DNA of 31,317 bases, taken from Polyangiales bacterium. Lineage in GTDB: Bacteria; Myxococcota_A; Polyangia; Polyangiales; Polyangiaceae. Of the stretch, positions 6,204 to 23,056 are shown piece after piece. Numbering within the stretch: the first letter of the stretch is position 1; each line of letters begins with the position of its first letter. A program made the translations under genes and the position numbers. The stretch spans positions 1-31,317 of the forward strand of contig JBBRLQ010000052.1 of assembly GCA_038231275.1 (NCBI GenBank), written 5' to 3'. Under the pieces are notes generated by a model. The model saw only the letters and a list, made by a program, of their open reading frames with translations. It did no database searches and was not told the origin of the DNA.

Positions 6204-7184
6204 TCAGAACGCGTAGCTGACGTTCGCCTGGAGCCCGAGCATCTCGTCGAGTGCGCCTCCGGCGGCGAACGCGTCGCCGGGGGAAGCGTGCATCGCGTAG
6301 GAGAACCGCCGGTAGCTCGCGGTCGCGCCGATCTCCCACGCGCGCGAGATCGCGAAGCTCGGACCGAGCGACGCTTCGACGCCTCCGACCTTCGCGTTCG
6401 GGAACCGATCGGCCACAGACCCCGCCGAGACGACGACGTCGTACCCGGCACTCGCCGCGACGGAGAACGGACCGAGAAAAACGCGCGCGTCGATCGAAGG
6501 CCGCACGAAGCGATAGGCGACCGCCGGCACTTGCGCGTCGATCGACGACGACGAAAACCCGAACGACTCGCCGCCGTACACTGCGCCCACGCCGAGAACG
6601 AGCCTCCCGCCGATGCGCGCACGCCCGCGGAGTCCCGCATGGAATCTCCACCAGCTCGTCGCGACGGGATCGCCGCCGTCGGTCTGCGACGCGAGGGCGA
6701 TCGCTTGCGCCGCGTACGCTCCGACGAGGCCGACGTCGACGGGGCTGGCGAGATCGGCGAGCGGATACACGCCAACGTTGGCGCCCACGAGCGGAGCTGC
6801 GCCGAGATCGTACCGCCGCAGGTTCGGCGTGACGGCGTCCGTATACCGAAAGTGCCGCGCGCCGAGCTCGGGACCTGCCTGGAGAAAGAGGAGCTCGTGA
6901 CCGCGGTCGCGCGGGGAGGAGACGGGGCTCGCGACGGAGTCACGGGCGATCGGAGCCAGCGTCGGAGTCGGAGTCGGAGTCGGAGTCGGAGTCGGAGTCG
7001 GAGTCGGAGTCGGGCTCGGAGTCGGGGTCGGAGTCGGGGTCTCGGTCGAAGTCGCGGTCGGGGTCGGGGTCGGGGTCGCGGTTGCCGCCGGGCGTGGCTT
7101 GCGGCGCTTGGGGGCGGCGGCCGCGGCGGTGGACGCGGACAAGACGAGGCACGCGAGGATCGTCACGACACGCGTTCCGTTCAC
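6204..7184 (-). CDS. Putative outer-membrane beta-barrel protein with N-terminal Pro-Thr linker (326 aa)
   Basis: GTG start overlaps the upstream stop (GTGA, 7184-7181). Signal peptide, (TP)n linker, alternating amphipathic strands, and a C-terminus GLQANVSYAF matching the BAM beta-signal pattern. Confidence 0.75.
   Translation of the reverse strand: MNGTRVVTILACLVLSASTAAAAAPKRRKPRPAATATPTPTPTATSTETPTPTPTPSPTPTPTPTPTPTPTPTPTLAPIARDSVASPVSSPRDRGHELLFLQAGPELGARHFRYTDAVTPNLRRYDLGAAPLVGANVGVYPLADLASPVDVGLVGAYAAQAIALASQTDGGDPVATSWWRFHAGLRGRARIGGRLVLGVGAVYGGESFGFSSSSIDAQVPAVAYRFVRPSIDARVFLGPFSVAASAGYDVVVSAGSVADRFPNAKVGGVEASLGPSFAISRAWEIGATASYRRFSYAMHASPGDAFAAGGALDEMLGLQANVSYAF
6961..7080. repeat. 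Hexamer microsatellite (GTCGGR)n encoding Pro-Thr linker
   Basis: 20 hexamer units; the first 8 are perfect GTCGGA. Confidence 0.95.
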
Positions 7185-8059
7185 GGCAAGCACCCAATCC
7201 GCGCGGCGTCGAGCGCCACGTCATCGAAGTACACGTCATCCGCCGAGGTGTTCGTCGAGTGCGTCTCGACGCCCAGCTTGATCGCTGCGAACGCGGGGAC
7301 GGTCAGCGCGCCCGAGTACGCGTACGACGCGAGCGATGCGCCGTCGGCGAAGAGCTCGATCTGCGGGGACGCCGTCGACATGTGCCATTCCATGCACGTC
7401 CACTTCGACAGCGGAATCGACGTCGCATACCCGACGGGGTTCTCGCCGCTCGGCGGATAGAACGTGAGCTGCACCTTCGCCTGCGACTGACCGATCTCGA
7501 GGACCTGCCCGGCGCCGCTCTCCATCTTCACGAGCGCGTTGTGGCCGACCGTCGCGTCGACCGTCTGGAAAATGTAGGCGCGGCCCCACAGACCGTTCGC
7601 GAGCGCGGGAAACGGCGATTTTGCGCGCGCAAACGCGAAGCCTCCGCCCGCGTTCGCGATGTGCGCGTGCGCCGCATGGGTCCCGTGCGCGGCCTCGCCG
7701 GTCTGAACGACGACGACGTTCGCGGGATCGTACCCAACGTCGAGCTCCCAGCGCTGCGCGTCGAGCTTCCCGCTCTCGAAGTCGTCGCAGAAGAGCGCCT
7801 TGCACGCCTGCGCCGCCGCGTCGGTCCCCGCGTCGGCGACGTGCGCGTCGGCACCGCTCGAGGGGTCGGGCGGCGGAGTGGGCGACGAGGTGTCCGGCGC
7901 GCCAGCACCACCGTCCGCGGGCACGCTTCCGTCGAGCGGAGCCGGCGCCGCGTCGCTCCCCTGCCCCGATGCATCCGACGCGCTCACGTCGCACGCCCCG
8001 AGCGCGAGCAACGGAAGAAGAGGAGGAAGCGACGCGAGGGAGAGGAGCGTTCTCGTCAT
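7181..8059 (-). CDS. Lipoprotein with Cip1-like / ConA-type beta-sandwich domain (292 aa)
   Basis: Start re-called at ATG 8059, 8 bp after the DUF1552 stop. Lipobox LALGA-C and Asp/Ala/Pro linker. LFCDDFESG, LWGRAYIF, KWTCMEW and DVYFDDVALDAARIGC resemble Cip1-core / polysaccharide-lyase-like domains. Confidence 0.7.
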   Translation of the reverse strand: MTRTLLSLASLPPLLPLLALGACDVSASDASGQGSDAAPAPLDGSVPADGGAGAPDTSSPTPPPDPSSGADAHVADAGTDAAAQACKALFCDDFESGKLDAQRWELDVGYDPANVVVVQTGEAAHGTHAAHAHIANAGGGFAFARAKSPFPALANGLWGRAYIFQTVDATVGHNALVKMESGAGQVLEIGQSQAKVQLTFYPPSGENPVGYATSIPLSKWTCMEWHMSTASPQIELFADGASLASYAYSGALTVPAFAAIKLGVETHSTNTSADDVYFDDVALDAARIGCLP

Positions 8060-8067
8060 GGCATCCC

Positions 8068-9516
8068 TCAGCGAAGGTTCGCGAGCGGTCCCTTGCAGAC
8101 CGCCGGGTTGCCGAAGGTCGAGATGCCGACGCCCATCGCGTTCGCGAGCGACACGAACAGATCGTTGTGCCCCGTCCCCTTCGCGTACTGGAGAAATCGG
8201 CCGGTCCGGAAATACCCGTTCGCGTTTCCCGCGACGATCCACGGCAAATCGTCGGTGTCGTGGTACCCGTTCGCGATCTGCCCGCAGTACACGACGACGG
8301 TCGAGTCGAGCAGCGTCCCGCCGTCGCCGCGCGGCACCGCCTTCAAGTACCCGAGCAGCTGCGCGAGCATGTCCGCCTGCGCGGTGTCGAGCTTCCGCAT
8401 CAAGTCGACGGCCTGCGGGATGTCCCACAGCGGACCGCCGTTGCCGTACTGGTTGATGCCCGAGCACTGGTGCGCCAAATCGTGCGTGTTCGCGTGCGCC
8501 TTGCCGTTGCCGTAGTCGGCGGGCTGGTACCCGATGACGTCGTCGATCGCGCCGTAGCCGGGGAGGTGCAGGATCTGGACGCGCGTGAGATCGCACGCGA
8601 GCGCCGAGACCGCGAGGCGCGCCTGCACGTCCCACCCCAGCTTCGTCCACGCGCCGCGCTCCGCCTGCGAGGCGCCGCTCGCCGGGTGCACGTCGAACTT
8701 CGCGATGTCCCCTTGCAGCGCGGCGTCGGGAGGCTGGCACGTGAGGCTCGTTCCGATCTGCATCTGCGCGCGAAGATCCCGAATCGTCTGCGCGTGCTGG
8801 TCGAGCTTCGCCTTGTCTTCCTTCGACAGGCGCGACTTCACGCCGGAGTACTCGCCGAGCGCGAGATCGATCGACGCCTGCTGCCTCGCGAGCTTCGCCG
8901 CCGCCGCCTTCTTTTGCGCGTCGGTCTGCTGGCCCAAGTCGGCTGGGAATTGCTTCAGGACCCCCGACGGCCCGTACTGCCTATCGTTGGTCTGTCCCGC
9001 GGAGAGGTACGACGTGCCGCCCTCCATATCGGGTGCGTTCAAGAAATCGAGCTCCCACGACGGGTAGCGCGTGACCGGCGCTGGCGTGTTGATCGCCTTC
9101 GCGATGACCTGATCGATCGACGGCCCGCCGGCCAGCGACTGCGTCATGCGATTGGCCGCGGTCAGCGCGTGCGTTCCTCCGCGCACGTGCGAGTTCGCGA
9201 ACGCCGAGGTGTCGGCGTCCTGGCTTGCCATCGAGATCCCTCGGGTCAGGAGCAGCTGGCTCTTGAACGGCGCGAGCGACGCGTGGATGGGCGCCAGATC
9301 GAAGCTCGTCTCGGTCGGCTTCGGACTCCCGCCTGCGCCGAGCGGCTGGTAGAGCTCGCGGACGGTGCCCATATTGTAGACGAACAGGATGCGCGGCGGC
9401 AGGATCGGCGCGTCGGCGCGCGCGCGGCGCGTGAAGAGGCTCGGCAGCATGGCGCTCGTCGTGCCCGCCATGGCCAGCTGCAAGAGTAGCCGACGCGAGA
9501 GTCCCTGGATCTTCAT
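8068..9516 (-). CDS. DUF1552 (HXXSHH family) protein with twin-arginine signal (482 aa)
   Basis: ATG overlaps the upstream stop (ATGA, 9516-9513). Tat motif LSRRLLL..ARADA. Family-like segments: LAPIHASLAPFK, GPSIDQVIA, KLDQHAQTIRDL, ALACDLTRV, GGTLLDSTVV, HDTDDLPWIVAG, HNDLFVSLANAMG. Confidence 0.88.
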   Translation of the reverse strand: MKIQGLSRRLLLQLAMAGTTSAMLPSLFTRRARADAPILPPRILFVYNMGTVRELYQPLGAGGSPKPTETSFDLAPIHASLAPFKSQLLLTRGISMASQDADTSAFANSHVRGGTHALTAANRMTQSLAGGPSIDQVIAKAINTPAPVTRYPSWELDFLNAPDMEGGTSYLSAGQTNDRQYGPSGVLKQFPADLGQQTDAQKKAAAAKLARQQASIDLALGEYSGVKSRLSKEDKAKLDQHAQTIRDLRAQMQIGTSLTCQPPDAALQGDIAKFDVHPASGASQAERGAWTKLGWDVQARLAVSALACDLTRVQILHLPGYGAIDDVIGYQPADYGNGKAHANTHDLAHQCSGINQYGNGGPLWDIPQAVDLMRKLDTAQADMLAQLLGYLKAVPRGDGGTLLDSTVVVYCGQIANGYHDTDDLPWIVAGNANGYFRTGRFLQYAKGTGHNDLFVSLANAMGVGISTFGNPAVCKGPLANLR

Positions 9517-11177
9517 GGGGTCACCGTCCGGTAGCGGAACGCCGCGCTCTTCACGACCTGGAGAACGAGCTCGCGGAACGTCGGCGCGCCGCCGAGCCCG
9601 GCGCGTACGGGGGCGACGAGATCGTCGGTGGCGATCTCCTGATCGATCCCGAGGCCGTACTGGAGCCAGTTCTTGGTGATGCAGCGCGCGGCGCGATCGC
9701 TCGTGGCGAGCTTCTTGTTGAGGGCGACGATGCCGTCGAAGGGACCGTCGATCTCCTGCGTCCCGAGGATGGCGCCGGTCGCGTCCACAGGCTTGCCGCC
9801 TTCGCTGTCCCGCCACGCGCCGACCGCGTCGTAGTGCTCGAAGCCGAAGCCGACGCCGTCGATGAGCTTGTGGCATCCCGCACAGTCGCCGAGCTCGTGC
9901 AGGCTCTGGAAGCGATCGCGGGTGGTCGACGTGTCACCGCCCGCCGCGGCGGGGGGCGTGTTCTTGACGTTGGGCGGCGGCGGCGGCGGCGCGGAGCAGA
10001 GGATGCGATCGAGCACGAACACGCCGCGGAGCACCGGCGACTCCATCCGCTCGTGACCGAACGCGGCGAGGAGCCCGACCTGCGTCAGGATTCCGCCGCG
10101 TTGCGCGGAGTCGGTGGTCACCTGTGTGAGCCCGGAGCCCCCGACGGCCGGGAGCCCATAGTAGGGCGACAGCGTGTCGTCGACGAACGCGTGCGTGTCC
10201 GTGAAGAGCGACGCGAACGTCCCCTCCTCCCAAAAGACGTGGTCGACGAAGCGCACCGTCGAGTCGCGCATGGCTTTCGCCGTCGCGTCGGACCACGTCG
10301 GAAACATCGTCGGGTCCTTCTTGAGCTGCTCGAGCAACCCGAAGCGCAGCCACTGGTACTGCATGTGCGCGACCGACGCGTGCGCGCGCGGATCGTCGAG
10401 CAGCCTCTTCACCTGGGCGTCGAGGACCTCGGGCTGGAGGAGCCGATCGTCGTCGGCGACCGCGCGGAGGGCCGCGTCGGGGAGGCTCGCCCAGAGGAAC
10501 GTCGCGAGGCGCGCGGCCAGCTCGTTGCCGGTGAGCCGCGCGAGCTCGGGCTTTCCCGCCACCGGCGTGCCCTCTTCGATTTGGTAGAGGAACGCCGGCG
10601 CCTGCAAAATTCCCTCGATCACGACGCCGATCGACGACGCGATGTCGTTCGACGCGCGGAGCGTCTGCCACGCCGCCCCGAGGCGCGCGCTCTCTTCGGG
10701 ACGGAGCGGATGGCGGTACGCGCGCGACGACAGATCGGCGAGGTACGCGAGCGCGCACGTATCGTCGACCGAGGCGACCGCGCACGCGAGAACGACCCCG
10801 AGGTTCGCGGAGACGAGCGCGGCGATCGCGTTTGCGTTGGCCTGATATGCCTCGATGAGCGTCGCGGTCGGCGCTTGCACCACCGCGTCGTTGTCGTAGA
10901 CGACCGCGGTGGACGGAGACGGCAGCGTCAGCGCCGGGAGCACGAAATCCGGGAAGAGCGCGTGGACGCTGTTGGTGTACGCGAGGTTCGTCAGGCGGAG
11001 GACCTGCGGCGAGACGACGAGCTGCCCGTCGACGGCGCGCGGCGAGGTCGCGCCGTCGGCTCCCGCGTCGGCGCCGGATACGATGGTGTCGTCGGTTCCC
11101 CCACCAATGACGCCGGTGCACGCCGCCACGGCGAGCGGGACCGCCAGCGGGAGGAGGCGTGCGAGGGTCGAACGCAT
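9513..11177 (-). CDS. DUF1592/DUF1588 (PSD/PSCyt3) domain lipoprotein with one CxxCH heme-c motif (554 aa)
   Basis: Lipobox AVAA-C. Motifs RLTNLAYTNSV, RAYRHPL, LQAPAFLY, ELAARLATFLWASLPD, RGGILTQ, SPVLRGVFVLDRILC, TTRDRF, CAGCH, GFGFEHYDAVGAWR. Translationally coupled to DUF1552, the usual partner. Confidence 0.9.
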   Translation of the reverse strand: MRSTLARLLPLAVPLAVAACTGVIGGGTDDTIVSGADAGADGATSPRAVDGQLVVSPQVLRLTNLAYTNSVHALFPDFVLPALTLPSPSTAVVYDNDAVVQAPTATLIEAYQANANAIAALVSANLGVVLACAVASVDDTCALAYLADLSSRAYRHPLRPEESARLGAAWQTLRASNDIASSIGVVIEGILQAPAFLYQIEEGTPVAGKPELARLTGNELAARLATFLWASLPDAALRAVADDDRLLQPEVLDAQVKRLLDDPRAHASVAHMQYQWLRFGLLEQLKKDPTMFPTWSDATAKAMRDSTVRFVDHVFWEEGTFASLFTDTHAFVDDTLSPYYGLPAVGGSGLTQVTTDSAQRGGILTQVGLLAAFGHERMESPVLRGVFVLDRILCSAPPPPPPNVKNTPPAAAGGDTSTTRDRFQSLHELGDCAGCHKLIDGVGFGFEHYDAVGAWRDSEGGKPVDATGAILGTQEIDGPFDGIVALNKKLATSDRAARCITKNWLQYGLGIDQEIATDDLVAPVRAGLGGAPTFRELVLQVVKSAAFRYRTVTP

Positions 11178-11190
11178 TCGGGTACCTGTC

Positions 11191-11219
11191 AGAGCGCACG
11201 ACGAGCCCCGACCGGCTCA
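11191..11219 (-). promoter_or_regulatory. Putative ECF sigma promoter, copy 1 (TGAGCCG-N15-GCGCTCT)
   Basis: Minus strand reads TGAGCCG gtcggggctcgtcgt GCGCTCT and ends 13 bp before ATG 11177. Both boxes and the spacing are identical to the copy at 12344-12372. Confidence 0.7.
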
Positions 11220-11248
11220 CGAAATCGACCGACAGGCCAGGAGCGGTG

Positions 11249-12262
11249 TTATTTCGGCTCTTTGCGGTCGTCGTGGTCCGCGCGAACGTCGGTCACCTCA
11301 CGCGGCGGACGCGAGCTGCGCGACGAGCCCGGCGCGTTCGACTTGGGCGGCGCGACGGACTTTGGCGGCGCGACGGACTTTGGCGGCGCGATGGAGGTGC
11401 GCTGCGGCCGATGGACCGCCATGAACGCCTCTGCCATCTCCTTCGCGGTCTGGAAGCGGCGATCGGGATCGCGGTGAAGCGCGCGCTCGAACCAGGCGTC
11501 GATGGATGCGCCGAGCTCGCTCTTCACGTGGCGCAGCTGCGAAGGGGGCGTCGGCCTGCTCCGCGTGTGCTCGAGCAGCATCTCCCCAACGGTCTCCGCG
11601 TCGAGCGGGACCTTCCCGGTGAAGCACTCGTACGCGACGACGGCGAGGCCGTACAGATCGCTGCGCGCGTCGGCCGGCCGACCGTCGAGTAGGACCTCGG
11701 GGCTCATGTACTTGAGCGTGCCGCCGAGCTGGTGCCGCATCGACTCGCCGCTCGCGCGTCGCCTGAGCCGCGCGATGCCGAAGTCGAGGACCTTCACGAG
11801 CGGGCGATCAGGATCGCCGCAGAGGAAGATGTTCTCCGGCTTGATATCCATGTGGATCACGCCGACCGAGTGCGCGCGTCCGAGCGCGCGGCACGTTTGG
11901 ACGACGAGCTCCGCGCAGAGGGCCAACGACAACCGACCCTCGCGCTCGAGGCGGGCGCCCAGCTCGTCGCCCGTCAAGAGCTCGTAGGCGATGTACGGCG
12001 CGCCACCTTCGTCGACGCCGCGATCGAGCACGCGCACGACGTTCGGGCTAAGCATTCGCGCCGACAGCTCGGCCTCTTCGGCGAAGCGCTGGAGGACGAC
12101 CTCGCGATCGGCGGCCTGCCCACGCTGGAGCTTGATCGCGACGTCGATGGCGAGGTGCTGGTCGTGCGCGCGCCAGACGGTCCCCATGCCGCCGTCGCCG
12201 ATTGGCGCGATCAGCCGGTACCGTCCCGCCAAAAAGGCGCCTGCCGCGATCGCCGTCGTCAC
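11249..12262 (-). CDS. Cytoplasmic Ser/Thr protein kinase, non-RD (HMD) (~337 aa)
   Basis: GDGGMGTVW, VAIK, HMDIKPEN, DFG, GTLKYMSPE, SDLYGL. Start chosen at GTG 12262 after GGGAGG; ATG 12316 is an alternative. No TM segment. Confidence 0.88.
   Translation of the reverse strand: MTTAIAAGAFLAGRYRLIAPIGDGGMGTVWRAHDQHLAIDVAIKLQRGQAADREVVLQRFAEEAELSARMLSPNVVRVLDRGVDEGGAPYIAYELLTGDELGARLEREGRLSLALCAELVVQTCRALGRAHSVGVIHMDIKPENIFLCGDPDRPLVKVLDFGIARLRRRASGESMRHQLGGTLKYMSPEVLLDGRPADARSDLYGLAVVAYECFTGKVPLDAETVGEMLLEHTRSRPTPPSQLRHVKSELGASIDAWFERALHRDPDRRFQTAKEMAEAFMAVHRPQRTSIAPPKSVAPPKSVAPPKSNAPGSSRSSRPPREVTDVRADHDDRKEPK
11346..11390. repeat. 18-bp tandem repeat (2.5 copies) encoding APPKS(V) in kinase tail
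   Basis: GGCGGCGCGACGGACTTT repeated; protein reads IAPPKSVAPPKSVAPPKSN. Confidence 0.85.
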
Positions 12263-12343
12263 TGCTTCCCCCTCCCGACCTCGTAACAGTGAGGGGAGGT
12301 GTGCCGCAGGTTGCATGTTTTGTCGAGGTGAGCCGCGAAAGTT

Positions 12344-12372
12344 TGAGCCGCTTCCCATCTGCGGCGCGCTCT
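12344..12372 (+). promoter_or_regulatory. Putative ECF sigma promoter, copy 2 (TGAGCCG-N15-GCGCTCT)
   Basis: TGAGCCG cttcccatctgcggc GCGCTCT ends 12 bp before ATG 12385, the first gene of the operon that contains the ECF sigma factor. Confidence 0.7.
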
Positions 12373-12384
12373 CATGGGTGGAAG

Positions 12385-14169
12385 ATGCAACTCCGCGGAA
12401 ATCCTCGTACGGCGCTCGCTACCGGCCTCTTCGCGCTCGTTCTTGCGGGCGCGTGCGGGGGCAGCGGCGACGGGGCGGGCGCGGGCGGAGCGAGCGGAAG
12501 CAGTGGCAGCGGAACCAGCGGAAGCAGTGGCAGCGGAACCAGCGGCGGCTCATCCTCGGGCGATGCGGGTGGCGCGGGGCCAGACGGTAGCGGCGGGGGC
12601 GACGCGGCGAGACCCCCGGACGTCGACGCGAGCGCGATCCCTCCGCCGAGCGCCACGTGCACGGCGCCGATCGCGGCCGTCGACACGTCGACCCCCACCA
12701 CCATCGTCGGCACCGGCACAGCGGCGTCGTGCACCGAGGCCGCGCTCGTCGCCGCGCTCGCGAAGGGCGGCAAGATCACGTTCGCGTGCGGCGCCGCTCC
12801 CGCCACCCTGGTGGTCACCAAGACCCTCGCGCTGCCCACCGACGTCGACACCGTCATCGACGGCGGCGGCAAGGTCACGATCGACGGCGGCGGCAAGGTC
12901 CGCATCCTCGACTACGCGCACGCGGACTACCGCAAGAACACGCACGTCCTCACGCTCCAGCACATCACCTTCGCACACGGCCACGCGACCGGCACCGACG
13001 CCTTCGCCCCCGCGCCGCTGCCGTGCTCGAGCGGCTTTTACGACGGCGCAGGCGGGGCGATCCAGATGCGCGACGGCGTGCTCCACGTCATCGACGCGAC
13101 GTTCCTCAACAACGAAGCGGAGTCTCTCGGTCCGGACATCGGCGGCGGCGCGATCTACTTGAGTGGCGCGCTCAACGCCGTCGTCGTCGGCTCGACCTTC
13201 GTGGGCAACTCGGGGGCCAACGGTGGCGCGATCGGCGCCCTCAACTCCGATCTCGACGTGTACAATACACGCTTCGAGGGAAACACCGCGCTGGGCTTCG
13301 GCGCCAACGGCGACGACGCCGGCAAGTGCGCAGTGGTCGCGAAGACCGGCCAACACCAAGTGGGCAGCGGCGGCAACGGCGGCGCCGTGTGCATCGACGG
13401 GGGCAGCGACGGCACGCACGCGTTCTGCGGCGTGGTCTTCAAGGGGAACCGCGGCGGCAAGCAGGCGCTCGGGGGCGCGCTCTTCCGCACGCCCGACGGC
13501 GCCAAGCAGACGACCACGATCGATCGCTGCCTCTTCGACGGCAACTCCGGCGAGGGCGGCGGCGCGGCGTACTTCCACAACTCGACGCTCACGATCACCG
13601 CGTCGACGTTCGCGGCGAACAAGGGCGCGGGCATCGGGACGATCCAGGCCGACGGGACGACGTTCGATTTCACCAACGTCACGTTCGCGGGCAACCACTC
13701 GACGGCCGGCGTCGGCGCGACGCTCGCGCTCTTCGGCGGGGACGGCAAGCTGCTCAACTGCACGTTCGCGGGCAACGCGTGCGACGCGCCGAACATGTTC
13801 GCGGCGGCGATCTTCGGGTCACCGAACCTCACCGTCCAAAATACGATCTTCGACGGGAACACCGCGCAGAACGGCGGCGCGCCGATGCAGTGCCAGGTCG
13901 GGACGATCACGGGCGGCGGCGACATGCAGTGGCCGAAGAACCACGCGAATGGCGGCGGCGCAGACGCGCTTTGTGTGCCCGGCATCTACGAGGACGCGGA
14001 TCCGGCGCTCGGGGCGATCGGCGAGCACGGCGGGCCGGTGCCGACGATGCTTCCGGCGGCCGGCAGCCCCGCGCTCGCGCGTGGAACCGCCTGCCCTGCG
14101 ACCGATGCGCGCGGTCACGCCCGGAGCGGGGCGTCGTGCACCGCCGGTGCGGTCGAAGGCGCGCAATGA
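12385..14169 (+). CDS. Lipoprotein with right-handed beta-helix (Pmp-like FxxN/GGA repeats) and choice-of-anchor-Q-like C-terminus (594 aa)
   Basis: Start re-called at ATG 12385; lipobox LAGA-C; SG linker. Repeats FLNN..GGGAIY, FVGN..NGGAI, FKGN..GGALF, FDGN..GGGAAY. Tail DPALGAIGEHGGPVPTMLPAAGSPA..CPATDARG..GAVE. Confidence 0.8.
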   Translation: MQLRGNPRTALATGLFALVLAGACGGSGDGAGAGGASGSSGSGTSGSSGSGTSGGSSSGDAGGAGPDGSGGGDAARPPDVDASAIPPPSATCTAPIAAVDTSTPTTIVGTGTAASCTEAALVAALAKGGKITFACGAAPATLVVTKTLALPTDVDTVIDGGGKVTIDGGGKVRILDYAHADYRKNTHVLTLQHITFAHGHATGTDAFAPAPLPCSSGFYDGAGGAIQMRDGVLHVIDATFLNNEAESLGPDIGGGAIYLSGALNAVVVGSTFVGNSGANGGAIGALNSDLDVYNTRFEGNTALGFGANGDDAGKCAVVAKTGQHQVGSGGNGGAVCIDGGSDGTHAFCGVVFKGNRGGKQALGGALFRTPDGAKQTTTIDRCLFDGNSGEGGGAAYFHNSTLTITASTFAANKGAGIGTIQADGTTFDFTNVTFAGNHSTAGVGATLALFGGDGKLLNCTFAGNACDAPNMFAAAIFGSPNLTVQNTIFDGNTAQNGGAPMQCQVGTITGGGDMQWPKNHANGGGADALCVPGIYEDADPALGAIGEHGGPVPTMLPAAGSPALARGTACPATDARGHARSGASCTAGAVEGAQ

Positions 14170-14801
14170 CGACGCTCGCCGCACCGCTCGCGTTCGATTG
14201 GCGCTCCGCGTGGGCGCGCGGGCGGCTACCATCCATGGTCGTGCCGACCGTTCCCGCGCGCGCCCCTCTGCTGCACGAGGTCGCCCCCGACGACGCCGCG
14301 CTCGTCGCGCAGGCGATCGCGGGGAGCGAGCGTGCCTTCAGCGCCCTCTACCGGCGCCACGCGCGGTACGTGGCGGGCGTCGTGTACCGGCTCCTCGGCG
14401 GCGACGCGGAGCTCGACGACGTCGTGCAAGAGACCTTCTGCGACGCCAGCGCGGCGCTCGCGAGCCTGAAGGATCCGGGCGGCCTCCGCGCCTGGCTCGC
14501 GCGCATCGCGGTTCGACGCGTGCACAAGCGGCTGGCCAAGCGCCGGCGATGGCGCTGGCTCGTGGGAGAGGCAGCCCAGGGCGCGCCGCTCGTCTCCGAT
14601 CCCGCCGAACGGCAACGGGTCGACGCGCTGTACGAGGCGCTCGGCACGCTCCCCGTCGAGCTGCGAATTCCGTGGATCCTCCACCACGTCGAAGGCGAGA
14701 CGCTCCCCGACGTCGCGGGAATGTGCGCGGTCTCGCTCGCGACCGCGAAGCGCCGCATCGCCGAGGCCGCCGAGCGGCTGGAGAGGAAGCTCCAGGCATG
14801 A
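14166..14801 (+). CDS. ECF-type RNA polymerase sigma-70 factor (211 aa)
   Basis: ATGA overlap with upstream gene. Region 2: AFSALYRRH, DDVVQETF, AWLARIAVR. Region 4: LPVELRIPWILHHVEGETLPDVAGMCAVSLATAKRRIAEA. Confidence 0.93.
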   Translation: MTTLAAPLAFDWRSAWARGRLPSMVVPTVPARAPLLHEVAPDDAALVAQAIAGSERAFSALYRRHARYVAGVVYRLLGGDAELDDVVQETFCDASAALASLKDPGGLRAWLARIAVRRVHKRLAKRRRWRWLVGEAAQGAPLVSDPAERQRVDALYEALGTLPVELRIPWILHHVEGETLPDVAGMCAVSLATAKRRIAEAAERLERKLQA

Positions 14802-15823
14802 AGCCCGATCCCGGCGACCTGAAGGGCTCGCTCGAGCCGCCGTGGGACGACGTGCGAGAGCAGCGCGTCCTCGCGCGCGTGATGGAGGCGCGCGGCGCAG
14901 CGCAACCAACGACCTCACGCACGCGCGTTCGCGTGCTCGCGACGACGGCCGCGGTGGCGACGATCGCGGCGGCGGCGGCGTTCCTCGTCGTCGCGCGTCG
15001 TCACCACGACGTGCCCTCGCCGGCGCCCGTCGCGAGCGCACGTGCGACGACCTCGAGCGCTGCGCCCGAGCAGACGATGGCGCTCGCCGACGGGTCGCAA
15101 GCGACGCTCGTGTCCGACGCAGGGCTCCAAGTCGAAGAGCAGCGCGCCGACCGTGTTCGTATCGTGCAGAAGCGCGGCGTGGTCCGGTACGACGTCCGCG
15201 CCGATCCGACGCGTGATTTTCGGGTCCGCGCGGGCGGGACGTCCATCAAAGTGAACGGCACGATCGTGGCCGTCAGCATCCTCGCGGAGTATGTAGAGGT
15301 GCACGTCGAGCGCGGCAAGGCGGAGGTCGATGACGGCGCCCGCACGCGCGAGCTCGTCGACGGCGAGTCGCTGCGCGTGCCGATCCACGTCGACGCGCCG
15401 GCCGCAGACGCCGGCGCGCCCGATCCGGAGCCGAGCGCGCGCGCGCCGCAGACGCCGAGCGCGTCGTCGCTCCAAGCGGACGCCGACGCCGCGCGCGTGG
15501 CCGGCAACAACGGCGAGGCGGCGACCGCGCTCCGCAAGCTCATCGCCGTCTATCCCAAGGACGGGCGCGTGCCGGGCGCGCTCTTCACGCTCGGGCGCGT
15601 CGAGCGCTCCCGCGGACGCGACGACGAGTCGGCACGCGCGTTCGAGCGCTGCGTCGCGGCCGCGCCGAAGGGTCCCCTCGCGGGCGAAGCACTCGCGGAG
15701 GCCGCAGTCTCCTGGTCCAACGGCGGCGCGCGCGCCGCAGCGATGACCGACGCCGCGAAATACTTGTCGCGCTATCCTGACGGTCCGAGCGCCGCACGCA
15801 TGCGCGCGCTCGCGACCCCGTGA
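14798..15823 (+). CDS. FecR-domain anti-sigma factor with C-terminal TPR domain (341 aa)
   Basis: ATGA overlap; single TM segment (ATTAAVATIAAAAAFLVVA). FecR-like LADGSQATL, FRVRAGGTSIKVNGT, VHVERGKAEV. TPR helices ALFTLGRV..., YLSRYPDGP. Confidence 0.88.
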   Translation: MKPDPGDLKGSLEPPWDDVREQRVLARVMEARGAAQPTTSRTRVRVLATTAAVATIAAAAAFLVVARRHHDVPSPAPVASARATTSSAAPEQTMALADGSQATLVSDAGLQVEEQRADRVRIVQKRGVVRYDVRADPTRDFRVRAGGTSIKVNGTIVAVSILAEYVEVHVERGKAEVDDGARTRELVDGESLRVPIHVDAPAADAGAPDPEPSARAPQTPSASSLQADADAARVAGNNGEAATALRKLIAVYPKDGRVPGALFTLGRVERSRGRDDESARAFERCVAAAPKGPLAGEALAEAAVSWSNGGARAAAMTDAAKYLSRYPDGPSAARMRALATP

Positions 15824-16815
15824 ATCGACGCCACCTCGTCCACCTCCTCGCCCTCGTCCTCGCCGCTTCGTCGGTCGCGTCACGTGCGCGCGCCGAGCCG
15901 GCCCCCGCGGCCTCGCTGAGCGTCACCACCGAGGGCTGCGACGATCTGCGCGCCGCCGAGATCGAGCGCATCCTCCGCATCGAGCTCGCGGGGGTCGCGG
16001 AGCAATGGGGCGGCGCGGAGCCGCTGCGCGTCGAGCTCTCGTGTGAGGCGTCGCGCGTGCGCGTCCTCGCGATCGATCCGCTCACCGACAAGCGCCTCTC
16101 GCGCGAGGTTTCTCTGCGACGCACGAAGGATCGCGATCGCACCGTCGCGCTCCTCGTGTCGCAGTTGTTCCTCACGTCGTGGTCCGAGCTCCTGATGCGG
16201 CCACCGAGCGACGCCGCGCTTCCACCGCCTCCGCCCCCACCGCCGGCCGTCGCCCGCGCCGCCGAGGGGCTCGCGCGCGAGGCGATTGCGCCGTCATCGC
16301 GGCGCTGGCTCGTCGCGGCCGTCGCGGGTCCGCGCGTGCGTGACACTTCGAGCCCCACGCTCTCCGGACGCCTCGCGCTGCGGCCGTCGCTCCTCCTTGG
16401 GACGCATTGGTCGCTTGCCCTCGAGCTCGGCTACGAGCGCGGATCGGCGAAGCGCGCGAGCGGGAGCGTCGGCTTCGGCGCCGTGTCCGCGCTAATCGGC
16501 GGCGGTCTGCGCACGTCGCCCATCGGGCCTCTCGTCCTCGAAGCGAACGCGCGCGCCGGCGCCGCGTATTTCGATGTCCGTGGTGACGCCAACGCGCCCG
16601 TCATCGGAACCTCGGCGTCCGGCGTCGTCGCCGAGCTCGCCCTCGGCGCAGGTCCGACGCTTCACCTCGGCGCAGCGCGTGTCGGCCTCGAGCTCGGCGT
16701 GGGTCTCACCGCTCCGCGCGCGACCGCCCACGTCGCCCGCGACGCCGACGTCGCGCTCGGCGGTGCGTGGGCTGGGCTCAGCCTCGTCGTCGGCGTGGCG
16801 GAGGGCGGGCCGTGA
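15820..16815 (+). CDS. Exported protein: periplasmic N-domain, Pro linker, putative outer-membrane beta-barrel (331 aa)
   Basis: GTGA overlap; signal peptide ending ARA-E; poly-Pro linker; C-terminal half of Gly-rich alternating amphipathic strands. Confidence 0.68.
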   Translation: MNRRHLVHLLALVLAASSVASRARAEPAPAASLSVTTEGCDDLRAAEIERILRIELAGVAEQWGGAEPLRVELSCEASRVRVLAIDPLTDKRLSREVSLRRTKDRDRTVALLVSQLFLTSWSELLMRPPSDAALPPPPPPPPAVARAAEGLAREAIAPSSRRWLVAAVAGPRVRDTSSPTLSGRLALRPSLLLGTHWSLALELGYERGSAKRASGSVGFGAVSALIGGGLRTSPIGPLVLEANARAGAAYFDVRGDANAPVIGTSASGVVAELALGAGPTLHLGAARVGLELGVGLTAPRATAHVARDADVALGGAWAGLSLVVGVAEGGP

Positions 16816-18059
16816 AGCGCGTCGTCGCGAGCGGGTCGCTGGTCGTCCTCGGTCTCGTCGCCGCCGCCGCGTGCGGCTTCGACGACACGGTCCTCCGCGA
16901 CGCGCCCGACGCCGCCGCGCCCGTCCCCGACGCGCCGCCCGGTGACTCCCCCATCGCTCCCTTCGACGTCGCGCCGGTACCCGACGCGCACGGCGTCTTC
17001 GCCGGCCAATACTTCACGTGCGCCATCGTCGCAGGCCGCACCTTTTGCTGGGGGAGCAACGTCGCCGGCACGCTCGGCACCGGCGATCTCGGCAGCCACC
17101 TCGCGCCCACGCCCGTCTCGATCGGCGTCGCGTTCCGAGCGATCGCGCCCGGCGAGTCGCACGCGTGCGGCCTCGAAGAGTCGGCGGGGCGCGTCCTCTG
17201 CTGGGGGCTCGGCGACAAAGGCCGACTCGGCCTCGGCGACACCGCGTCGCGCGCCGTCCCCGACGTCGTGCAGGGCCTCCCTTCCGTCGTCCAGCTCTCG
17301 GCCGGGTACACGAACACGTGCGCGGTCACGAGCGACGGCGCGCTCTTCGGTTGGGGCACCAACGACGAGGGCCAGCTCGGCCTCGGCGACGCGCAAGGCA
17401 ACGCCCCTGTCGTGCGGCCCACCCAGCTCGGCACCGACGTCGACTGGATCATGGCATCCGGCGGCCAAGGTCACACGTGCGGAATCCGAAAGCCCGGCAC
17501 GATGTGGTGCTGGGGCCGCAACACCGCCGGCGAGCTCGGCCTCGGCGACGGCATGCCCAACCAAATCCGCGCGCCCGTGCAGGTCGGCACCTTCGACGAC
17601 TACGTGAGCGTCGACCTCGGTCAAGACAACGCGTGCGCGATCCGAAAAGATGGCTCGCTTTTTTGCTGGGGCTCCGGCGAGTTCGTCGGCGCCGCCTCGC
17701 CGGACGGAGGGCAGTACCTCGTGTCGCCGACGCAAATCGGCACCGACACCGACTGGGCAACGGTGAGCGTCGACGTGTTCTCGGCATGCGCGATCAAGAC
17801 GAACGGTTCCCTCCACTGCTGGGGACGCAACGCCGAGGGCCAGCTCGGCGCGGGAGATCTCGCCTACCGCCCGTCACCCACTCCGGTCGCGACGACGACG
17901 TCGTGGGCCGGCGTCTCGGTCGGACGCTTTCACACATGCGCCGAGAGCACCGCGCGCGAAGTCTTCTGCGCGGGCGCCGACGAGAGCGGCGAGCTCGGGC
18001 TGGGCGACACCGCCCGGCGCAGCGTGTTTACGGCGGTCGTCTTTCCCGGCACGCACTGA
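16812..18059 (+). CDS. RCC1/BLIP-II repeat lipoprotein (415 aa)
   Basis: GTGA overlap; lipobox AAAA-C; seven RCC1-like repeats (CWGSNVAGTLG, CWGLGDKGRLG, GWGTNDEGQLG, CWGRNTAGELG, CWGSG, CWGRNAEGQLG, CAGADESGELG). Confidence 0.92.
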   Translation: MKRVVASGSLVVLGLVAAAACGFDDTVLRDAPDAAAPVPDAPPGDSPIAPFDVAPVPDAHGVFAGQYFTCAIVAGRTFCWGSNVAGTLGTGDLGSHLAPTPVSIGVAFRAIAPGESHACGLEESAGRVLCWGLGDKGRLGLGDTASRAVPDVVQGLPSVVQLSAGYTNTCAVTSDGALFGWGTNDEGQLGLGDAQGNAPVVRPTQLGTDVDWIMASGGQGHTCGIRKPGTMWCWGRNTAGELGLGDGMPNQIRAPVQVGTFDDYVSVDLGQDNACAIRKDGSLFCWGSGEFVGAASPDGGQYLVSPTQIGTDTDWATVSVDVFSACAIKTNGSLHCWGRNAEGQLGAGDLAYRPSPTPVATTTSWAGVSVGRFHTCAESTAREVFCAGADESGELGLGDTARRSVFTAVVFPGTH

Positions 18060-21020: not shown

Positions 21021-21633
21021 CACCGACGAGGCGCACGCTGATGCGCGCGAGATCGGCGGTCCAGGTGACGTTCGCTCCAGCGGCGACCTGCTCGAGCCGG
21101 GCGACGGCGCGGAAGCCGCGACGAACGAAGCGCACGCGATGGGCGCCGGGGTCCACGAAGACCGGCGCCGCGAACGGGGTCGTCCCCACGCGCTCTTCGT
21201 CGACCATCACGTCGACGCCCGCGAGCGCTCCGGTGACGGTGACGGTGGCGACGGACTTCTCGAGGATCGCACGCCAACGCGCCGCCTCGTCGCGATCGAC
21301 CTTGGTGAGGAGCGCGCCGCCCGACGCGACATACGCATCGATGAGCGTGAGCGCCTTCGCCGCGTGCCCGAGCTTTCTCTCGCACGCGGCCATGTTCCAC
21401 TGAAGGCGCGGATCGCGCGAGCCCTCGAACGCGCGTCCGAACGCGTCGCGCGCGGCCGTGAAGTCGCCCGCCGAATACGCCGCGCGCCCGCGATCGTACG
21501 CGGCGCGCGCGTCCCCGCTGAGGGCCTCCGCGAGGGGTAGAGGAACCACGGCGTCACCCCGCGCAGGGGTCGCGAGAACGAGCGCGCACAGACAAAACGC
21601 GAGGACGAGGAAGGAACGGCGGGAGTGCTTCAC
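20992..21633 (-). CDS. TPR + PEGA domain exported protein, possibly C-terminally truncated (213 aa)
   Basis: GTGA overlap with kinase stop; signal peptide ending ARG-D. TPR: ARAAYDRGRAAYSAGDFTAA..WNMAACERKLG. PEGA: VMVDEERVGTTP..VDPGAHRVRFVRRGF. The 3' end overlaps the convergent gene by 29 bp. Confidence 0.82.
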
Positions 21634-22982
21634 TTGAGATCCATGTCACCCGGTGGCTTCGCCGACCGCGGCCGCGGAGGTGCCACCGGGCGCGCGCTCG
21701 TCCCCGCGTCGACCGCGACCGGAGTCGGAGTCGGAGTCGGAGTCGGAGTCGGAGTCGGGGTCGGAGTCGGGGTCGGAATCGGGGTCGGAGTCGGGGTCGG
21801 AGTCGCGGTCGACGTCGCGGTCGACGTCGAGGTCCCGGTCGACGTCGTTCGCCACGCGAAAAACAGGATGACGACCGCCGCGATGACGAGCGGCGCGATG
21901 CGGCGAAGCTTCGACGGCGCAGGCTGCGCGGGCGGCGGCGGACTTGGCGGCGGCGTCGAGAGGGCGACCGGCTTGTCCAGCGTCGCCGCGGCTTCCATCG
22001 ACATCGACATCGTCCGCGGCTCGTCGGCGCGCAGAGGAGCCGCGATCGGCTGCCGGCCCGACGATGGGCGCGACGCGAAGAGGACGTTTTTCACGCGCTC
22101 GGCGATCGCCTCACCGCCCGGCGCGAACGGCGCGAGGGCCAGCGCGAGGTCGGCGACGTTCGCGTACCTCTTCGCAGGATCCTTCTCGAGGCAGCGCTGC
22201 ACGATCGCCTCGAGCGCCGTCGGAGCATCCGCGCGCGCGACGGTGAGCGGCGTCGGCGGCTCGGTCGCGATCCGCGCGCCGAGGGCCGTCGCGCTGTCCG
22301 CGTCGAACGGCATCGCGCCGGTCACCAGCTCGTGCAGTACCACGCCGAGCGACCACACGTCGGTCCGTGCATCGACGTCACGCGACGACTTCAGCTGCTC
22401 GGGTGACATGTACGACGGCGACCCGAGCGCCCTCTCCGCGCCTGTCACGCCGAGCGCGTCGTCCGCAGCATCGCGCGGCGCCTTCGAGATCCCGAAGTCG
22501 AGCACCTTCACGATCCCCGGCGTACCCGGCCGGCTCGCGAGGAAGAGGTTCGCGGGCTTCAGATCGCGGTGCACGATCCCGACGGCGTGCGCTTCGGCGA
22601 GGCCCATGCACGCCTGGAGCACGACGTCGACGGCGCGCGCCACGTCGAGCGGGCCATCTCCCGCGAGCACCGCCGACAGATCGCGCCCCTCCAGGTACTC
22701 CATCACCAGGAACGGCGTCCCCGTCTCGCTCTCGTCGACGTCGAGGATGCGCACGACATGATCGCTCTGGATCTTCGCCGCCGCGCGGGCCTCGCGGGCG
22801 AACCTCGCCACCGCGCCGGCCTTCGCCGCGGTCTCGGGCGCGAGCATCTTGAGCGCGACGTTCTGCTCGAGCCGCAAGTGCCGCGCGAGCACGACGACGC
22901 CCATGCCGCCGGTGCCGAGCACGCGCTTCACGCGGTATTTGCCGCGGAGGATCTCCCCTTCCTGGAACCGGCTCGTCGTCAT
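21630..22982 (-). CDS. Membrane-anchored Ser/Thr protein kinase (450 aa)
   Basis: GTGGMGVV, VALK, HRDLKPAN, DFG, GSPSYMSPE, DVWSLG. TM segment IAPLVIAAVVILFFAW, then a Pro/Thr-rich external tail. GGAG RBS. Confidence 0.95.
   Translation of the reverse strand: MTTSRFQEGEILRGKYRVKRVLGTGGMGVVVLARHLRLEQNVALKMLAPETAAKAGAVARFAREARAAAKIQSDHVVRILDVDESETGTPFLVMEYLEGRDLSAVLAGDGPLDVARAVDVVLQACMGLAEAHAVGIVHRDLKPANLFLASRPGTPGIVKVLDFGISKAPRDAADDALGVTGAERALGSPSYMSPEQLKSSRDVDARTDVWSLGVVLHELVTGAMPFDADSATALGARIATEPPTPLTVARADAPTALEAIVQRCLEKDPAKRYANVADLALALAPFAPGGEAIAERVKNVLFASRPSSGRQPIAAPLRADEPRTMSMSMEAAATLDKPVALSTPPPSPPPPAQPAPSKLRRIAPLVIAAVVILFFAWRTTSTGTSTSTATSTATPTPTPTPIPTPTPTPTPTPTPTPTPTPVAVDAGTSARPVAPPRPRSAKPPGDMDLK
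21721..21804. repeat. Hexamer microsatellite (GGRGTC)n encoding Pro-Thr linker
   Basis: 14 units, the first 6 perfect GGAGTC; degenerate units continue to about 21846. Confidence 0.95.
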
Positions 22983-23056
22983 GGGCTCCGTTTGCGGCCT
23001 ATTTCAGGATGGTAACCGATCGTGCACAACTCGGCCAAAGCCGGCAGAATGACCCC

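What the first reader, a model, noticed from the sequence alone, without database searches (positions are those of the whole stretch)
11191..12372. Identical bipartite motif TGAGCCG-N15-GCGCTCT in front of both operons
Seen: minus strand 11219-11191 and plus strand 12344-12372 share 14/14 identical box bases and identical 15-bp spacing, with largely different spacers. They end 13 and 12 bp before the respective ATGs. Established: ECF sigma factors commonly autoregulate through bipartite -35/-10 motifs of about this geometry. Inference: this is the target promoter of the ECF at 14166-14801 and ties the DUF1592/1552 operon to it. I do not recognise it as a described ECF motif.
Basis: partly seen in the sequence, partly recalled or inferred. 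Interest (0 to 1): 0.8.

Follow-up and report, generated by a model that had tools for sequence, protein, structure and literature searches.

The report
Shared ECF sigma promoter, two operons
Two neighbouring operons of an uncultured myxobacterium carry the same two-box promoter, most likely read by the alternative sigma factor encoded in one of them, which links that sigma factor to a widespread pair of secreted proteins of unknown function.

Summary
Confirmed. TGAGCCG-N15-GCGCTCT occurs exactly twice in the window (0.00 expected in shuffles). One copy lies 12 nt before the ATG of the lipoprotein / ECF sigma / FecR-TPR operon. The other lies 13 nt before the ATG of the DUF1592-DUF1552 operon.

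- **Sigma orthologs:** a TGAGCC-type -35 box precedes 24 of 26 inspected orthologs (52-86% identity), whatever the first gene is. The -10 is CTCT in 14 of them and CACT-like in 9. Spacers are unrelated.
- **Other targets:** the motif precedes 11 Pfam-confirmed DUF1592 genes in 7 genomes, plus other lipoprotein genes.
- **This genome:** a 42-site matrix finds four sites (scores 26-39; next 20; no control above 22). They are the two window sites, a second DUF1592-DUF1552 operon and one more lipoprotein gene.

Refined consensus: A/T-rich, TGAGCCG(A/G)TC, N12, G(G/C)(C/G)CTCT.

Start codons lie either 5-10 nt downstream without a Shine-Dalgarno or 17-26 nt downstream with one. This suggests a start site about 7 nt after CTCT and leaderless or short-leader mRNAs.

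By gene context the sigma resembles group ECF267, for which no conserved promoter is reported. There are no transcript data, so sigma dependence is inferred. Earlier notes of this scan describe similar ECF-DUF1592/DUF1552 modules in other genomes.

The parts
12344..12372 (+). Predicted ECF-dependent promoter of the lipoprotein-ECF operon. -35 is TGAGCCGCTT (12344-12353), -10 is GCGCTCT (12366-12372), with an A/T-rich flank aaagtt at 12338-12343. It ends 12 nt before ATG 12385.
   Evidence: Orthologous sites in G001 and G002 keep the boxes with different spacers. Matrix score 26.0.
11191..11219 (-). Predicted ECF-dependent promoter of the DUF1592-DUF1552 operon. -35 is TGAGCCGGTC (11219-11210), -10 is GCGCTCT (11197-11191), with the flank gatttcg 5' of it. 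It ends 13 nt before ATG 11177.
   Evidence: Exact-box orthologous sites in G001 and G002. Matrix score 33.4.
12385..14169 (+). First gene of the sigma operon: 594-aa lipoprotein-like protein with a right-handed beta-helix region and a choice-of-anchor Q domain. It is present in front of the sigma gene only in the window's genus.
14166..14801 (+). ECF sigma factor (sigma-70 regions 2 and 4). Its start overlaps the upstream stop (ATGA).
   Evidence: (TIGR02937 58.4 bits, cut-off 42.9)
14798..15823 (+). Single-pass membrane protein with a FecR domain and TPR repeats, the putative anti-sigma factor. It has a conserved cytoplasmic N-terminal motif EPPWDDVREQRVL. Its start overlaps the sigma stop.
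15820..16815 (+). Conserved 331-aa protein with no family hit, co-linear with the sigma gene in relatives.
16767..18059 (+). RCC1-repeat protein, the last conserved gene of the sigma operon. Its start is uncertain.
9513..11177 (-). 554-aa lipoprotein with DUF1595, DUF1592, DUF1588 and DUF1585 domains. First gene of the second operon.
8068..9516 (-). DUF1552 (HXXSHH) protein with a twin-arginine-like signal (SRRLLL). Its start overlaps the DUF1592 stop (ATGA).
7181..8059 (-). 292-aa lipoprotein-like gene 8 nt after the DUF1552 stop, probably a third operon member. It has only a sub-threshold Cip1-like / polysaccharide-lyase-like match (25.4 bits, cut-off 27).
11249..12262 (-). Ser/Thr protein kinase gene between the two promoters. 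It is not conserved there: G002 has the two promoters 55 bp apart and G001 has about 6 kb of other genes. Listed for orientation, not as part of the conserved module.

Best explanation
The two copies are -35/-10 target promoters of the ECF sigma factor encoded at 14166-14801. Region 4 of the sigma would read TGAGCCG(A/G)TC and region 2 would read G(G/C)(C/G)CTCT 12 nt further on. Transcription would start about 7 nt after CTCT. In the window this gives leaders of only about 5-6 nt. In many relatives it gives leaderless mRNAs. One promoter drives the sigma's own operon (beta-helix lipoprotein, sigma, FecR/TPR membrane protein, an unknown protein and an RCC1-repeat protein), which is positive autoregulation. 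The other drives DUF1592-DUF1552 plus a third lipoprotein gene. Two more promoters of the same type elsewhere in the genome drive a second DUF1592-DUF1552 operon (C3) and a 373-aa lipoprotein gene (C2). The FecR/TPR protein probably holds the sigma inactive at the membrane until an envelope signal releases it. Shown here: the motif, its conservation, its position and its co-occurrence with the sigma ortholog. Inferred: that this sigma reads it, the start site, and the anti-sigma role.
For: (1) Exact duplicate in the window: 2 against 0.00 expected.
(2) In G001 and G002 (sigma 86% and 82% identical) both promoters keep the boxes while the spacers differ.
(3) Where the lipoprotein gene is missing, the motif sits directly before the sigma gene. 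This holds for G003, G022, G034, G094, G072, G054, G080, G130 and record L119 (Pfam).
(4) Tally over the 26 orthologs inspected (52-86% identity): TGAGCC-N19-CTCT in 11, N18-CTCT in 3, and CACT, CACC or CTAC in 9 (two of these with a one-base -35 variant). One has the -35 box only, and 2 have nothing.
(5) The same motif precedes 11 Pfam-confirmed DUF1592 genes in 7 genomes. These include genes placed divergently next to the sigma gene in G072, G054 and G065. They fall into two well-supported clades (100/100 and 94/93).
(6) Strict pattern over 151 genomes of the order: G000 has 3 hits against 0 control. Family f11 has 28 hits in 9 genomes against 1 control. Most other genomes have 0-2 hits, like the control.
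(7) The same pattern with one extra spacer base gives 0 hits in G000 and 0 of 9 f11 genomes.
(8) At least 3 strict hits occur in 8 of 19 genomes with the sigma ortholog, against 2 of 132 without.
(9) A matrix from 42 sites finds 4 sites in G000 scoring 26.0-38.6. The next scores 20.2. In the reversed-genome control one site exceeds 20 and none exceeds 22.
(10) Columns that were not used to pick the sites carry information: A/T at -4 to -2, G7 in 40 of 42, T9 in 39 of 42.
(11) Start-codon distances, by a stated rule on 40 of 42 sites: 17 lie at 5-10 nt and 7 at 11-14 nt. Ten lie at 17-26 nt, and 9 of those 10 have a GGAG/GAGG/AGGA word, against 1 of the 29 sites at 14 nt or less. This fits one fixed start site a few nt after CTCT.
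(12) G000 has only one sigma matching the window's at E<=1e-20.
(13) No sigma-70-like promoter lies in 11000-12600.
(14) Established knowledge: ECF sigmas commonly autoregulate through group-specific -35/-10 motifs (PMC7826278, passages read). CTCT-type -10 boxes are described for ECF30, 274, 284 and 285.
Against: - No transcript, start-site or binding data exist for this organism.
- The 10-base core TGAGCC-N19-CTCT occurs at background frequency. G000 has 14 hits. Five relatives have 57 hits against 76 for the reversed control.
- My own context test in G000 was weak: 2 of 14 against about 2.4% in permuted controls. Its filter also missed two of the four good sites.
- The 42 sites were picked partly by eye (flank plus nearby start). 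The f11 sites were found with a pattern that already fixed positions 7-9 and 25, so the matrix is partly circular.
- The G028 ortholog (60%) has the -35 box but GCCACGA in place of the -10 box, and no strict hits in its genome.
- Records L117 (64%) and L120 (51%) show no motif in the DNA held.
- The window's leaders would be only about 5-6 nt, too short for a Shine-Dalgarno, so translation would need a non-canonical mode.
- Only 2 of 7 DUF1592-DUF1552 pairs in G000 carry the motif.
- The one published description that fits the gene context (ECF267) says promoter motifs are not conserved.
- Related genomes are not independent samples.
Confidence: 0.85

Rival explanations
1. The motif is a promoter, but it is read by a different ECF sigma of the genome. 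The sigma in the window is merely one of its targets.
For: The genome has many ECF-like candidates: 119 in the first look. Paralogs at 41-49% identity in other genomes also carry a TGAGCC box upstream (8 of 13 loci), so -35 specificity may be shared within the clade.
Against: In G000 only this sigma matches at E<=1e-20. The motif follows this sigma's orthologs across at least five families. Strict-pattern enrichment goes with presence of the ortholog. The paralogs' -10 boxes differ: CACT, ACTC, ACTA.
Confidence: 0.07
2. The boxes are the binding site of a non-sigma transcription factor, such as a response regulator or repressor, overlapping an unrecognised promoter.
For: The boxes contain a 3-4 base complementary core (GAGC / GCTC). 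The sites lie very close to the start codons, a place where repressors often bind.
Against: The site is asymmetric and always points at the downstream gene. C5 can pair with position 25 in only 12 of 42 sites, so there is no conserved inverted repeat. A one-base change in spacing abolishes the enrichment. The geometry equals that of -35/-10 promoters. No other promoter-like site lies in the region. The bimodal start distances fit a fixed start site.
Confidence: 0.05
3. The motif acts in the RNA, as a 5'-leader element such as a stem or a translation signal shared by these mRNAs.
For: The distance to the start codon is fixed and short in many sites.
Against: At most 3 invariant pairs plus a 21-nt loop could form, and there is no covariation. 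In the 10 sites whose start lies at 17-26 nt the Shine-Dalgarno begins only about 7 nt after the box, so the boxes would lie upstream of the transcript if the promoter model holds. The A/T-rich flank and the -35-like box have no RNA rationale.
Confidence: 0.02
4. Chance resemblance, or a remnant of a local duplication.
For: The sequence is GC-rich and the boxes are short. A third exact copy lies inside a gene.
Against: 0.00 expected in the window. The flanks and spacers are unrelated, so it is not a duplicated segment. The boxes are conserved, with varying spacers, in other genera and families.
Confidence: 0.01

Closest known systems
Autoregulated ECF sigma target promoters in general; closest in sequence and geometry is the RpoE(Rsp)/ChrR type, TGATCC-N16-CGTA
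   Same: A bipartite -35/-10 motif with fixed spacing, lying upstream of the sigma's own operon and of a small regulon. The -35 differs by one base, TGAGCC against TGATCC (PMC5507510, passages read). Using such motifs to predict regulons is standard practice (PMC7826278, passages).
   Different: The -10 is G(G/C)(C/G)CTCT, not CGTA. The -35 extends to TGAGCCG(A/G)TC. The partner is a FecR/TPR protein, not a ChrR-type zinc anti-sigma. The targets are lipoproteins of unknown function. Many targets appear leaderless (inferred).
ECF group ECF267 (Casas-Pastor et al. 2021)
   Same: The group is described as polyangial myxobacterial (Sorangium, Chondromyces), with a FecR-like anti-sigma fused to TPR at +1, 1-3 protein kinases nearby at non-conserved positions, and no TonB-dependent receptor (supplement text; main text). 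The window has all of these context features.
   Different: Membership could not be tested because no group model is available here. The nearest named records are MAGs labelled Labilithrix, Polyangiaceae and Myxococcales, not Sorangium or Chondromyces. [quoted passage not shown]
FecI/FecR/FecA cell-surface signalling
   Same: An ECF sigma followed by a single-pass membrane protein with a FecR domain.
   Different: Pfam found no TonB-dependent transducer among the 125 open frames of the window. The periplasmic part ends in TPR repeats. The published tree places ECF267 far from the FecI-like clade. The targets are not iron-uptake genes.
ECF-headed DUF1592/DUF1552 modules noted earlier in this scan (e1-1448365, e1-2250832, e1-4087260)
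   Same: AI notes describe ECF sigma/anti-sigma pairs next to DUF1592-DUF1552 pairs. Two of them, in myxobacterial genomes, report a shared promoter motif.
   Different: They concern other genomes. No stretch like this sigma was on record in the scan, and 'TGAGCC' occurs in none of the notes. I did not check their motifs.

Membership tests
ECF sigma-dependent promoter | Two short conserved boxes at fixed spacing (about 16-17 bp between hexamer-like elements), spacer sequence free | tested here: met
   TGAGCC-N17-(C/G)(G/C/T)CTCT. Spacer columns carry little information in 42 sites. Spacing +1 loses the signal (against 41).
ECF sigma-dependent promoter | Present upstream of the sigma's own operon (autoregulation), and conserved there in orthologs | tested here: met
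   24 of 26 inspected orthologs have the -35 box and 14 have CTCT at N18-19.
ECF sigma-dependent promoter | Oriented toward, and close upstream of, the target genes | tested here: met
   In the 40 of 42 sites where a start could be assigned it lies within 42 nt downstream on the same strand, in 39 of them within 26 nt. The 2 others gave no open frame by the rule.
ECF sigma-dependent promoter | Transcription starts a few nt after the -10 box and depends on the cognate sigma | not testable with these tools
   Needs 5'-end mapping or a reporter assay.
ECF sigma factor (protein at 14166-14801) | Sigma-70 regions 2 and 4 only; passes the ECF superfamily model | tested here: met
   PF04542 and PF08281. 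TIGR02937 58.4 bits against a cut-off of 42.9.
ECF267 | FecR-like protein fused to TPR encoded at +1 | tested here: met
   14798-15823: FecR plus TPR_6/16/2/14 and one membrane helix. Conserved in 7 relatives.
ECF267 | Protein kinases in the neighbourhood at variable positions | tested here: met
   Four Pkinase genes in the 31-kb window, one adjacent. The adjacent one is not conserved in G001 or G002.
ECF267 | Assignment by the classification's own group models or tree; taxon Sorangium/Chondromyces | not testable with these tools
   No ECF Hub models are held. The nearest named records are Labilithrix-, Polyangiaceae- and Myxococcales-labelled MAGs.
FecI/FecR/FecA cell-surface signalling | TonB-dependent outer-membrane transducer encoded with the pair | tested here: not met
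   No TonB-dependent receptor family among the Pfam hits of the 125 frames of the window.
Housekeeping sigma-70 promoter | TTGACA-N16-18-TATAAT-like hexamers | tested here: not met
   0 sites in 11000-12600.

The most novel reading that the evidence does not exclude
An order-wide, previously undescribed ECF regulon of polyangial myxobacteria. An ECF267-like sigma, held by a FecR/TPR membrane sensor without any TonB transducer, switches on conserved DUF1592-DUF1552 pairs and other lipoproteins. It does so from promoters set so close to the start codons that much of the regulon is made as leaderless mRNA. If so, promoter and translation start are one compact module, and the sigma gives the first regulatory handle on the DUF1592/DUF1552 families.
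Probability: 0.35. Interest if true: 0.6.

Novelty: new member of a known kind. Interest (0 to 1): 0.45.

Why it matters
- It supplies a concrete, testable promoter consensus and a four-promoter regulon for an uncharacterised myxobacterial ECF sigma. The only published description fitting this sigma's gene context reports no conserved promoter.
- It links the sigma to DUF1592-DUF1552 gene pairs. These are common in Planctomycetes, Verrucomicrobia and Myxococcota and have no known function or regulator in the papers I could search.
- The sigma/promoter pair could serve as an orthogonal expression switch.
- The start-codon spacing predicts leaderless expression that is easy to check.
- It is nonetheless an ordinary kind of element, an autoregulated ECF promoter, not a new mechanism.

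Tried and rejected
- **RNA evidence:** The look-up of sequencing runs listed no RNA holder for window 9500-15900, so no reads were laid.
- **Sigma / anti-sigma binding:** a complex-prediction job (alignment A1 with residues 1-45 of A2) was never accepted. The queue was full, and the tool was declared unavailable. The anti-sigma role stays inferred.
- one search used a pattern with one N too many, by my mistake. It found only background and is used as a spacing control.
- **Weak context test:** the permuted-box context test in G000 was too strict and too small to decide anything.
- **Literature, motif:** a search for TGAGCC with ECF and sigma gave only primer-like or unrelated hits, apart from one RpoE(Rsp)-type promoter variant.
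- **Literature, leaderless mRNAs:** a search on leaderless mRNAs in Myxococcus (listing only) gave nothing useful.
- **Other readings rejected:** a sigma-54 promoter and a repeat or mobile element were considered and dropped, on reading the sequence only. There is no GG-N10-GC core and the flanks are unrelated.
- **G006:** its three strict hits are not promoter-like.
- **Not inspected:** the three hits each of G137 and G047, and 13 of the 57 hits.
- **NCBIfam:** it names none of the target proteins beyond a choice-of-anchor Q domain.
Full report
**Observation.** The + strand at 12344-12372 and the minus strand at 11219-11191 both read TGAGCCG-N15-GCGCTCT. They end 12 and 13 nt before ATG 12385 and ATG 11177. 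The spacers share 3 of 15 positions (my count). With no mismatch allowed the window has 2 matches, against 0.00 in 100 shuffles. With up to 2 mismatches the count is unremarkable, 3 against 1.47. The whole assembly (9.28 Mb, 164 contigs, 69% G+C; the window is the whole of contig C52) has 3 exact copies. About 0.25 are expected from base composition (my arithmetic). The third copy lies inside a 435-codon coding-like frame.

**Gene map.**
- Plus strand:
  - 12385-14169: beta-helix lipoprotein with a choice-of-anchor Q domain.
  - 14166-14801: ECF sigma (regions 2 and 4; TIGR02937 above cut-off).
  - 14798-15823: single-pass FecR + TPR protein.
  - 15820-16815: unknown protein.
  - 16767-18059: RCC1-repeat protein.
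  - The gene junctions overlap, which suggests one transcript.
- Minus strand:
  - 11177-9513: DUF1595/1592/1588/1585 lipoprotein.
  - 9516-8068: DUF1552 with a twin-arginine-like signal.
  - 8059-7181: lipoprotein with only a sub-threshold Cip1-like match.
- Between the two motif copies lies a Ser/Thr kinase gene (12262-11249, minus).
- No sigma-70-like promoter or intrinsic terminator was found in 11000-12600.

**Orthologous loci.**
- A search of 41 relatives with the sigma found clear orthologs in G001 (86%), G002 (82%), G003 (70%), G022 (71%, cut by a contig end), G034 (60%) and G028 (60%). G000 itself has only one match at E<=1e-20.
- The block sigma, FecR/TPR, unknown protein and RCC1 protein is co-linear in G001, G002, G003 and G034. 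G028 keeps the first three. The beta-helix lipoprotein precedes the sigma only in the window's genus.
- In G001 and G002 both promoters are present. All spacers differ.
- In G002 the two promoters are 55 bp apart. In G001 about 6 kb of unrelated genes lie between them: a Cu-monooxygenase-like gene, a TetR gene, DUF1501 and an 818-aa unknown. The kinase in the window is thus a lineage-specific insert.
- In G003, G022 and G034, which lack the lipoprotein gene, the motif lies directly before the sigma gene (Pfam).

**Wider sampling of sigma orthologs.**
- Five genomes of family f11 each have exactly one ortholog (59-62%). In four of them the motif lies directly upstream. In G065 the spacer is one base shorter.
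- Ten further orthologs (52-59%) from families f17, f22, f3 and f7 all have a TGAGC(C/T/G) box. At 18-19 nt follows either CTCT (f17) or CACT/CACC (f22, f3, f7).
- Tally over the 26 orthologs inspected:

| Upstream of the sigma operon | Orthologs |
|---|---|
| TGAGCC-N19-CTCT | 11 |
| TGAGCC-N18-CTCT | 3 |
| CACT, CACC or CTAC in place of CTCT | 9 |
| -35 box only (G028) | 1 |
| Nothing in the DNA held (L117, where the sigma follows another gene and only 882 nt upstream are held; L120) | 2 |

- Paralogs at 41-49% identity also show TGAGCC upstream in 8 of 13 loci, with other -10 boxes. Two of the 13 held too little upstream DNA, and the three without a box are at 39-43%.

**Regulon in this genome.**
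- The loose core TGAGCC-N19-CTCT has 14 hits in G000, which is about background.
- Four of these hits have an A/T-rich flank and a start codon 9-17 nt downstream:
  - the two window sites;
  - C3:213751-213779, before a second DUF1592 (583 aa) + DUF1552 (509 aa) operon;
  - C2:596302-596274, before a 373-aa lipoprotein gene.
- A matrix built from 42 sites scores these four at 26.0-38.6. The next site scores 20.2. In the reversed-genome control one site exceeds 20 and none exceeds 22.
- G000 has 7 DUF1592-DUF1552 pairs, and only 2 carry the motif. A third, on C27, has a degenerate version (GGAGCCG-N14-GCGCTCC) 32 nt before its GTG.

**Regulon in relatives.**
- In G001, G002, G003, G022 and G034 the loose core has 57 hits, against 76 for the reversed control. 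I examined 44 of them.
- I classed 23 as promoter-like, by flank, TGAGCC(G/A/T) and a nearby start. This was partly a judgement by eye.
- With the f11 sites, Pfam confirms DUF1592-family genes directly downstream in G000 (2), G001 (2), G002 (1, plus 2 cut open frames with the same N-terminus), G022 (1), G034 (3), G072 (1) and G065 (1). That is 11 genes in 7 genomes.
- In G072, G054 and G065 the DUF1592 gene is the divergent neighbour of the sigma gene. This is probably the ancestral layout.
- Other targets are BNR- or sortilin-like lipoproteins, a GH5-like lipoprotein and unknown lipoproteins.
- In a tree of 16 DUF1592 proteins the motif-bearing ones form two clades (100/100 and 94/93). The motif-bearing G034 protein L061 is sister to the G000 C27 protein (100/100).

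**Phyletic test.**
- Over one sample of 151 genomes of the order, the strict pattern TGAGCCGRT-N15-SCTCT gives these counts:

| Genomes | Hits | Control |
|---|---|---|
| G000 | 3 | 0 |
| Family f11 (9 genomes) | 28 | 1 |
| Most others | 0-2 each | similar to hits |

- The same pattern with N16 (my slip) gives 0 hits in G000 and in all 9 f11 genomes.
- The sigma ortholog (E<=1e-45) is found in 19 of the 151 genomes. This count includes G146, flagged unpublished, from which nothing else is used.
- At least 3 strict hits occur in 8 of 19 genomes with the ortholog and in 2 of 132 without. The two are G006, whose hits are not promoter-like, and G047, which is 54% complete and whose hits I did not inspect.
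- Related genomes are not independent, so this is descriptive only.

**Anatomy and inferred mechanism.**
- Among the 42 sites, several columns outside the core used to pick the sites carry information: A/T at -4 to -2, G7 (40 of 42), R8 (38), T9 (39), C10 (31), G24 (30) and C25 (29). For the f11 sites, positions 7-9 and 25 were part of the search pattern.
- The start codon was assigned by a stated rule: the first ATG in the frame of the long open frame, otherwise the first GTG. This was possible for 40 of the 42 sites:

| Distance from CTCT to start codon | Sites | Note |
|---|---|---|
| 1-2 nt | 5 | each has an alternative start at 7-13 nt |
| 5-10 nt | 17 | |
| 11-14 nt | 7 | |
| 17-26 nt | 10 | |
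| 42 nt | 1 | |

- Of the ten sites at 17-26 nt, nine contain GGAG, GAGG or AGGA beginning about 7 nt after the box. Only 1 of the 29 sites at 14 nt or less does.
- This bimodality fits one start site about 7 nt after CTCT. Many targets would then be leaderless, and the window's two mRNAs would have leaders of about 5-6 nt. This is inference.
- An inverted-repeat or RNA-stem reading fails. Only three invariant pairs could form, and C5 pairs with position 25 in 12 of 42 sites.

**Comparison with what is known.**
- ECF sigmas commonly autoregulate through group-specific -35/-10 motifs (PMC7826278, passages).
- That paper's group ECF267 is described in its supplement (held part read) as follows. 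It is found only in Sorangium and Chondromyces. A FecR-like protein fused to TPR lies at +1, with 1-3 kinases nearby at non-conserved positions and no TonB receptor. [quoted passage not shown]
- The main text says it is unclear whether the anti-sigma or the kinase regulates the group.
- The window matches these context features. Membership could not be tested, and the nearest named records are MAGs labelled Labilithrix, Polyangiaceae and Myxococcales.
- TGAGCC, GAGCC and TGAGC do not occur in the held part of that supplement, which was cut when stored. CTCT-type -10 boxes are listed there for ECF30, 274, 284 and 285.
- The closest described motif I met is TGATCC-N16-CGTA of the RpoE(Rsp) type (PMC5507510, passages).
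- A search for DUF1592, DUF1552 and 'sigma factor' found one paper (Rhodopirellula transcriptome; listing only).
- Earlier notes of this scan describe ECF-headed DUF1592/DUF1552 modules in two myxobacterial genomes and one verrucomicrobial genome. None is similar in sequence to this sigma.

**Verdict.** This is an ordinary kind of element with new specifics: a consensus, a four-promoter regulon, conservation across the order, and probably leaderless targets. Untested are sigma dependence, the start site and the role of the FecR/TPR protein.

Noticed in passing
window 12329-12336 (+): A second TGAGCCGC copy lies 15 nt upstream of the plus-strand -35 box. It has no matching -10 box at the right distance and no counterpart in G001 or G002. 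It is probably chance or a remnant.
   Followed up: partly
G000 C27, about 32 nt before the GTG of the DUF1592 gene near 99580-100300 (minus): A degenerate motif GGAGCCG-N14-GCGCTCC is followed by a strong Shine-Dalgarno. The orthologous G034 gene (L061) has a full motif. It may be a decayed or weak regulon member.
   Followed up: partly
window 11249-12262 (-); also 1071-2429, 21630-22982, 28469-29824: There are four protein kinase genes in 31 kb, one of them fused to a receiver domain. The one between the two promoters is a lineage-specific insert. Whether any of them phosphorylates the sigma is open.
   Followed up: no
window 7181-8059 (-): The third gene of the DUF1592-DUF1552 operon has a sub-threshold Cip1-like / polysaccharide-lyase-like match. 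Together with the beta-helix, GH5-like and BNR-like targets seen in relatives, this hints at polysaccharide or surface-glycan chemistry.
   Followed up: no
window 14166-14280 (+): The sigma of this genus has an N-terminal extension of about 38 residues that is missing in other orthologs. An internal ATG (Met24) would give the usual length.
   Followed up: no
window 22853-24457 (+): An FHA-domain sigma-54 activator lies next to another Ser/Thr kinase (21630-22982, minus). This is unrelated to the motif.
   Followed up: no
G034:C221:4536-4628 (minus): Three tandem copies of one 29-nt core match lie 31-33 nt apart. It looks like a tandem repeat, not a promoter.
   Followed up: no
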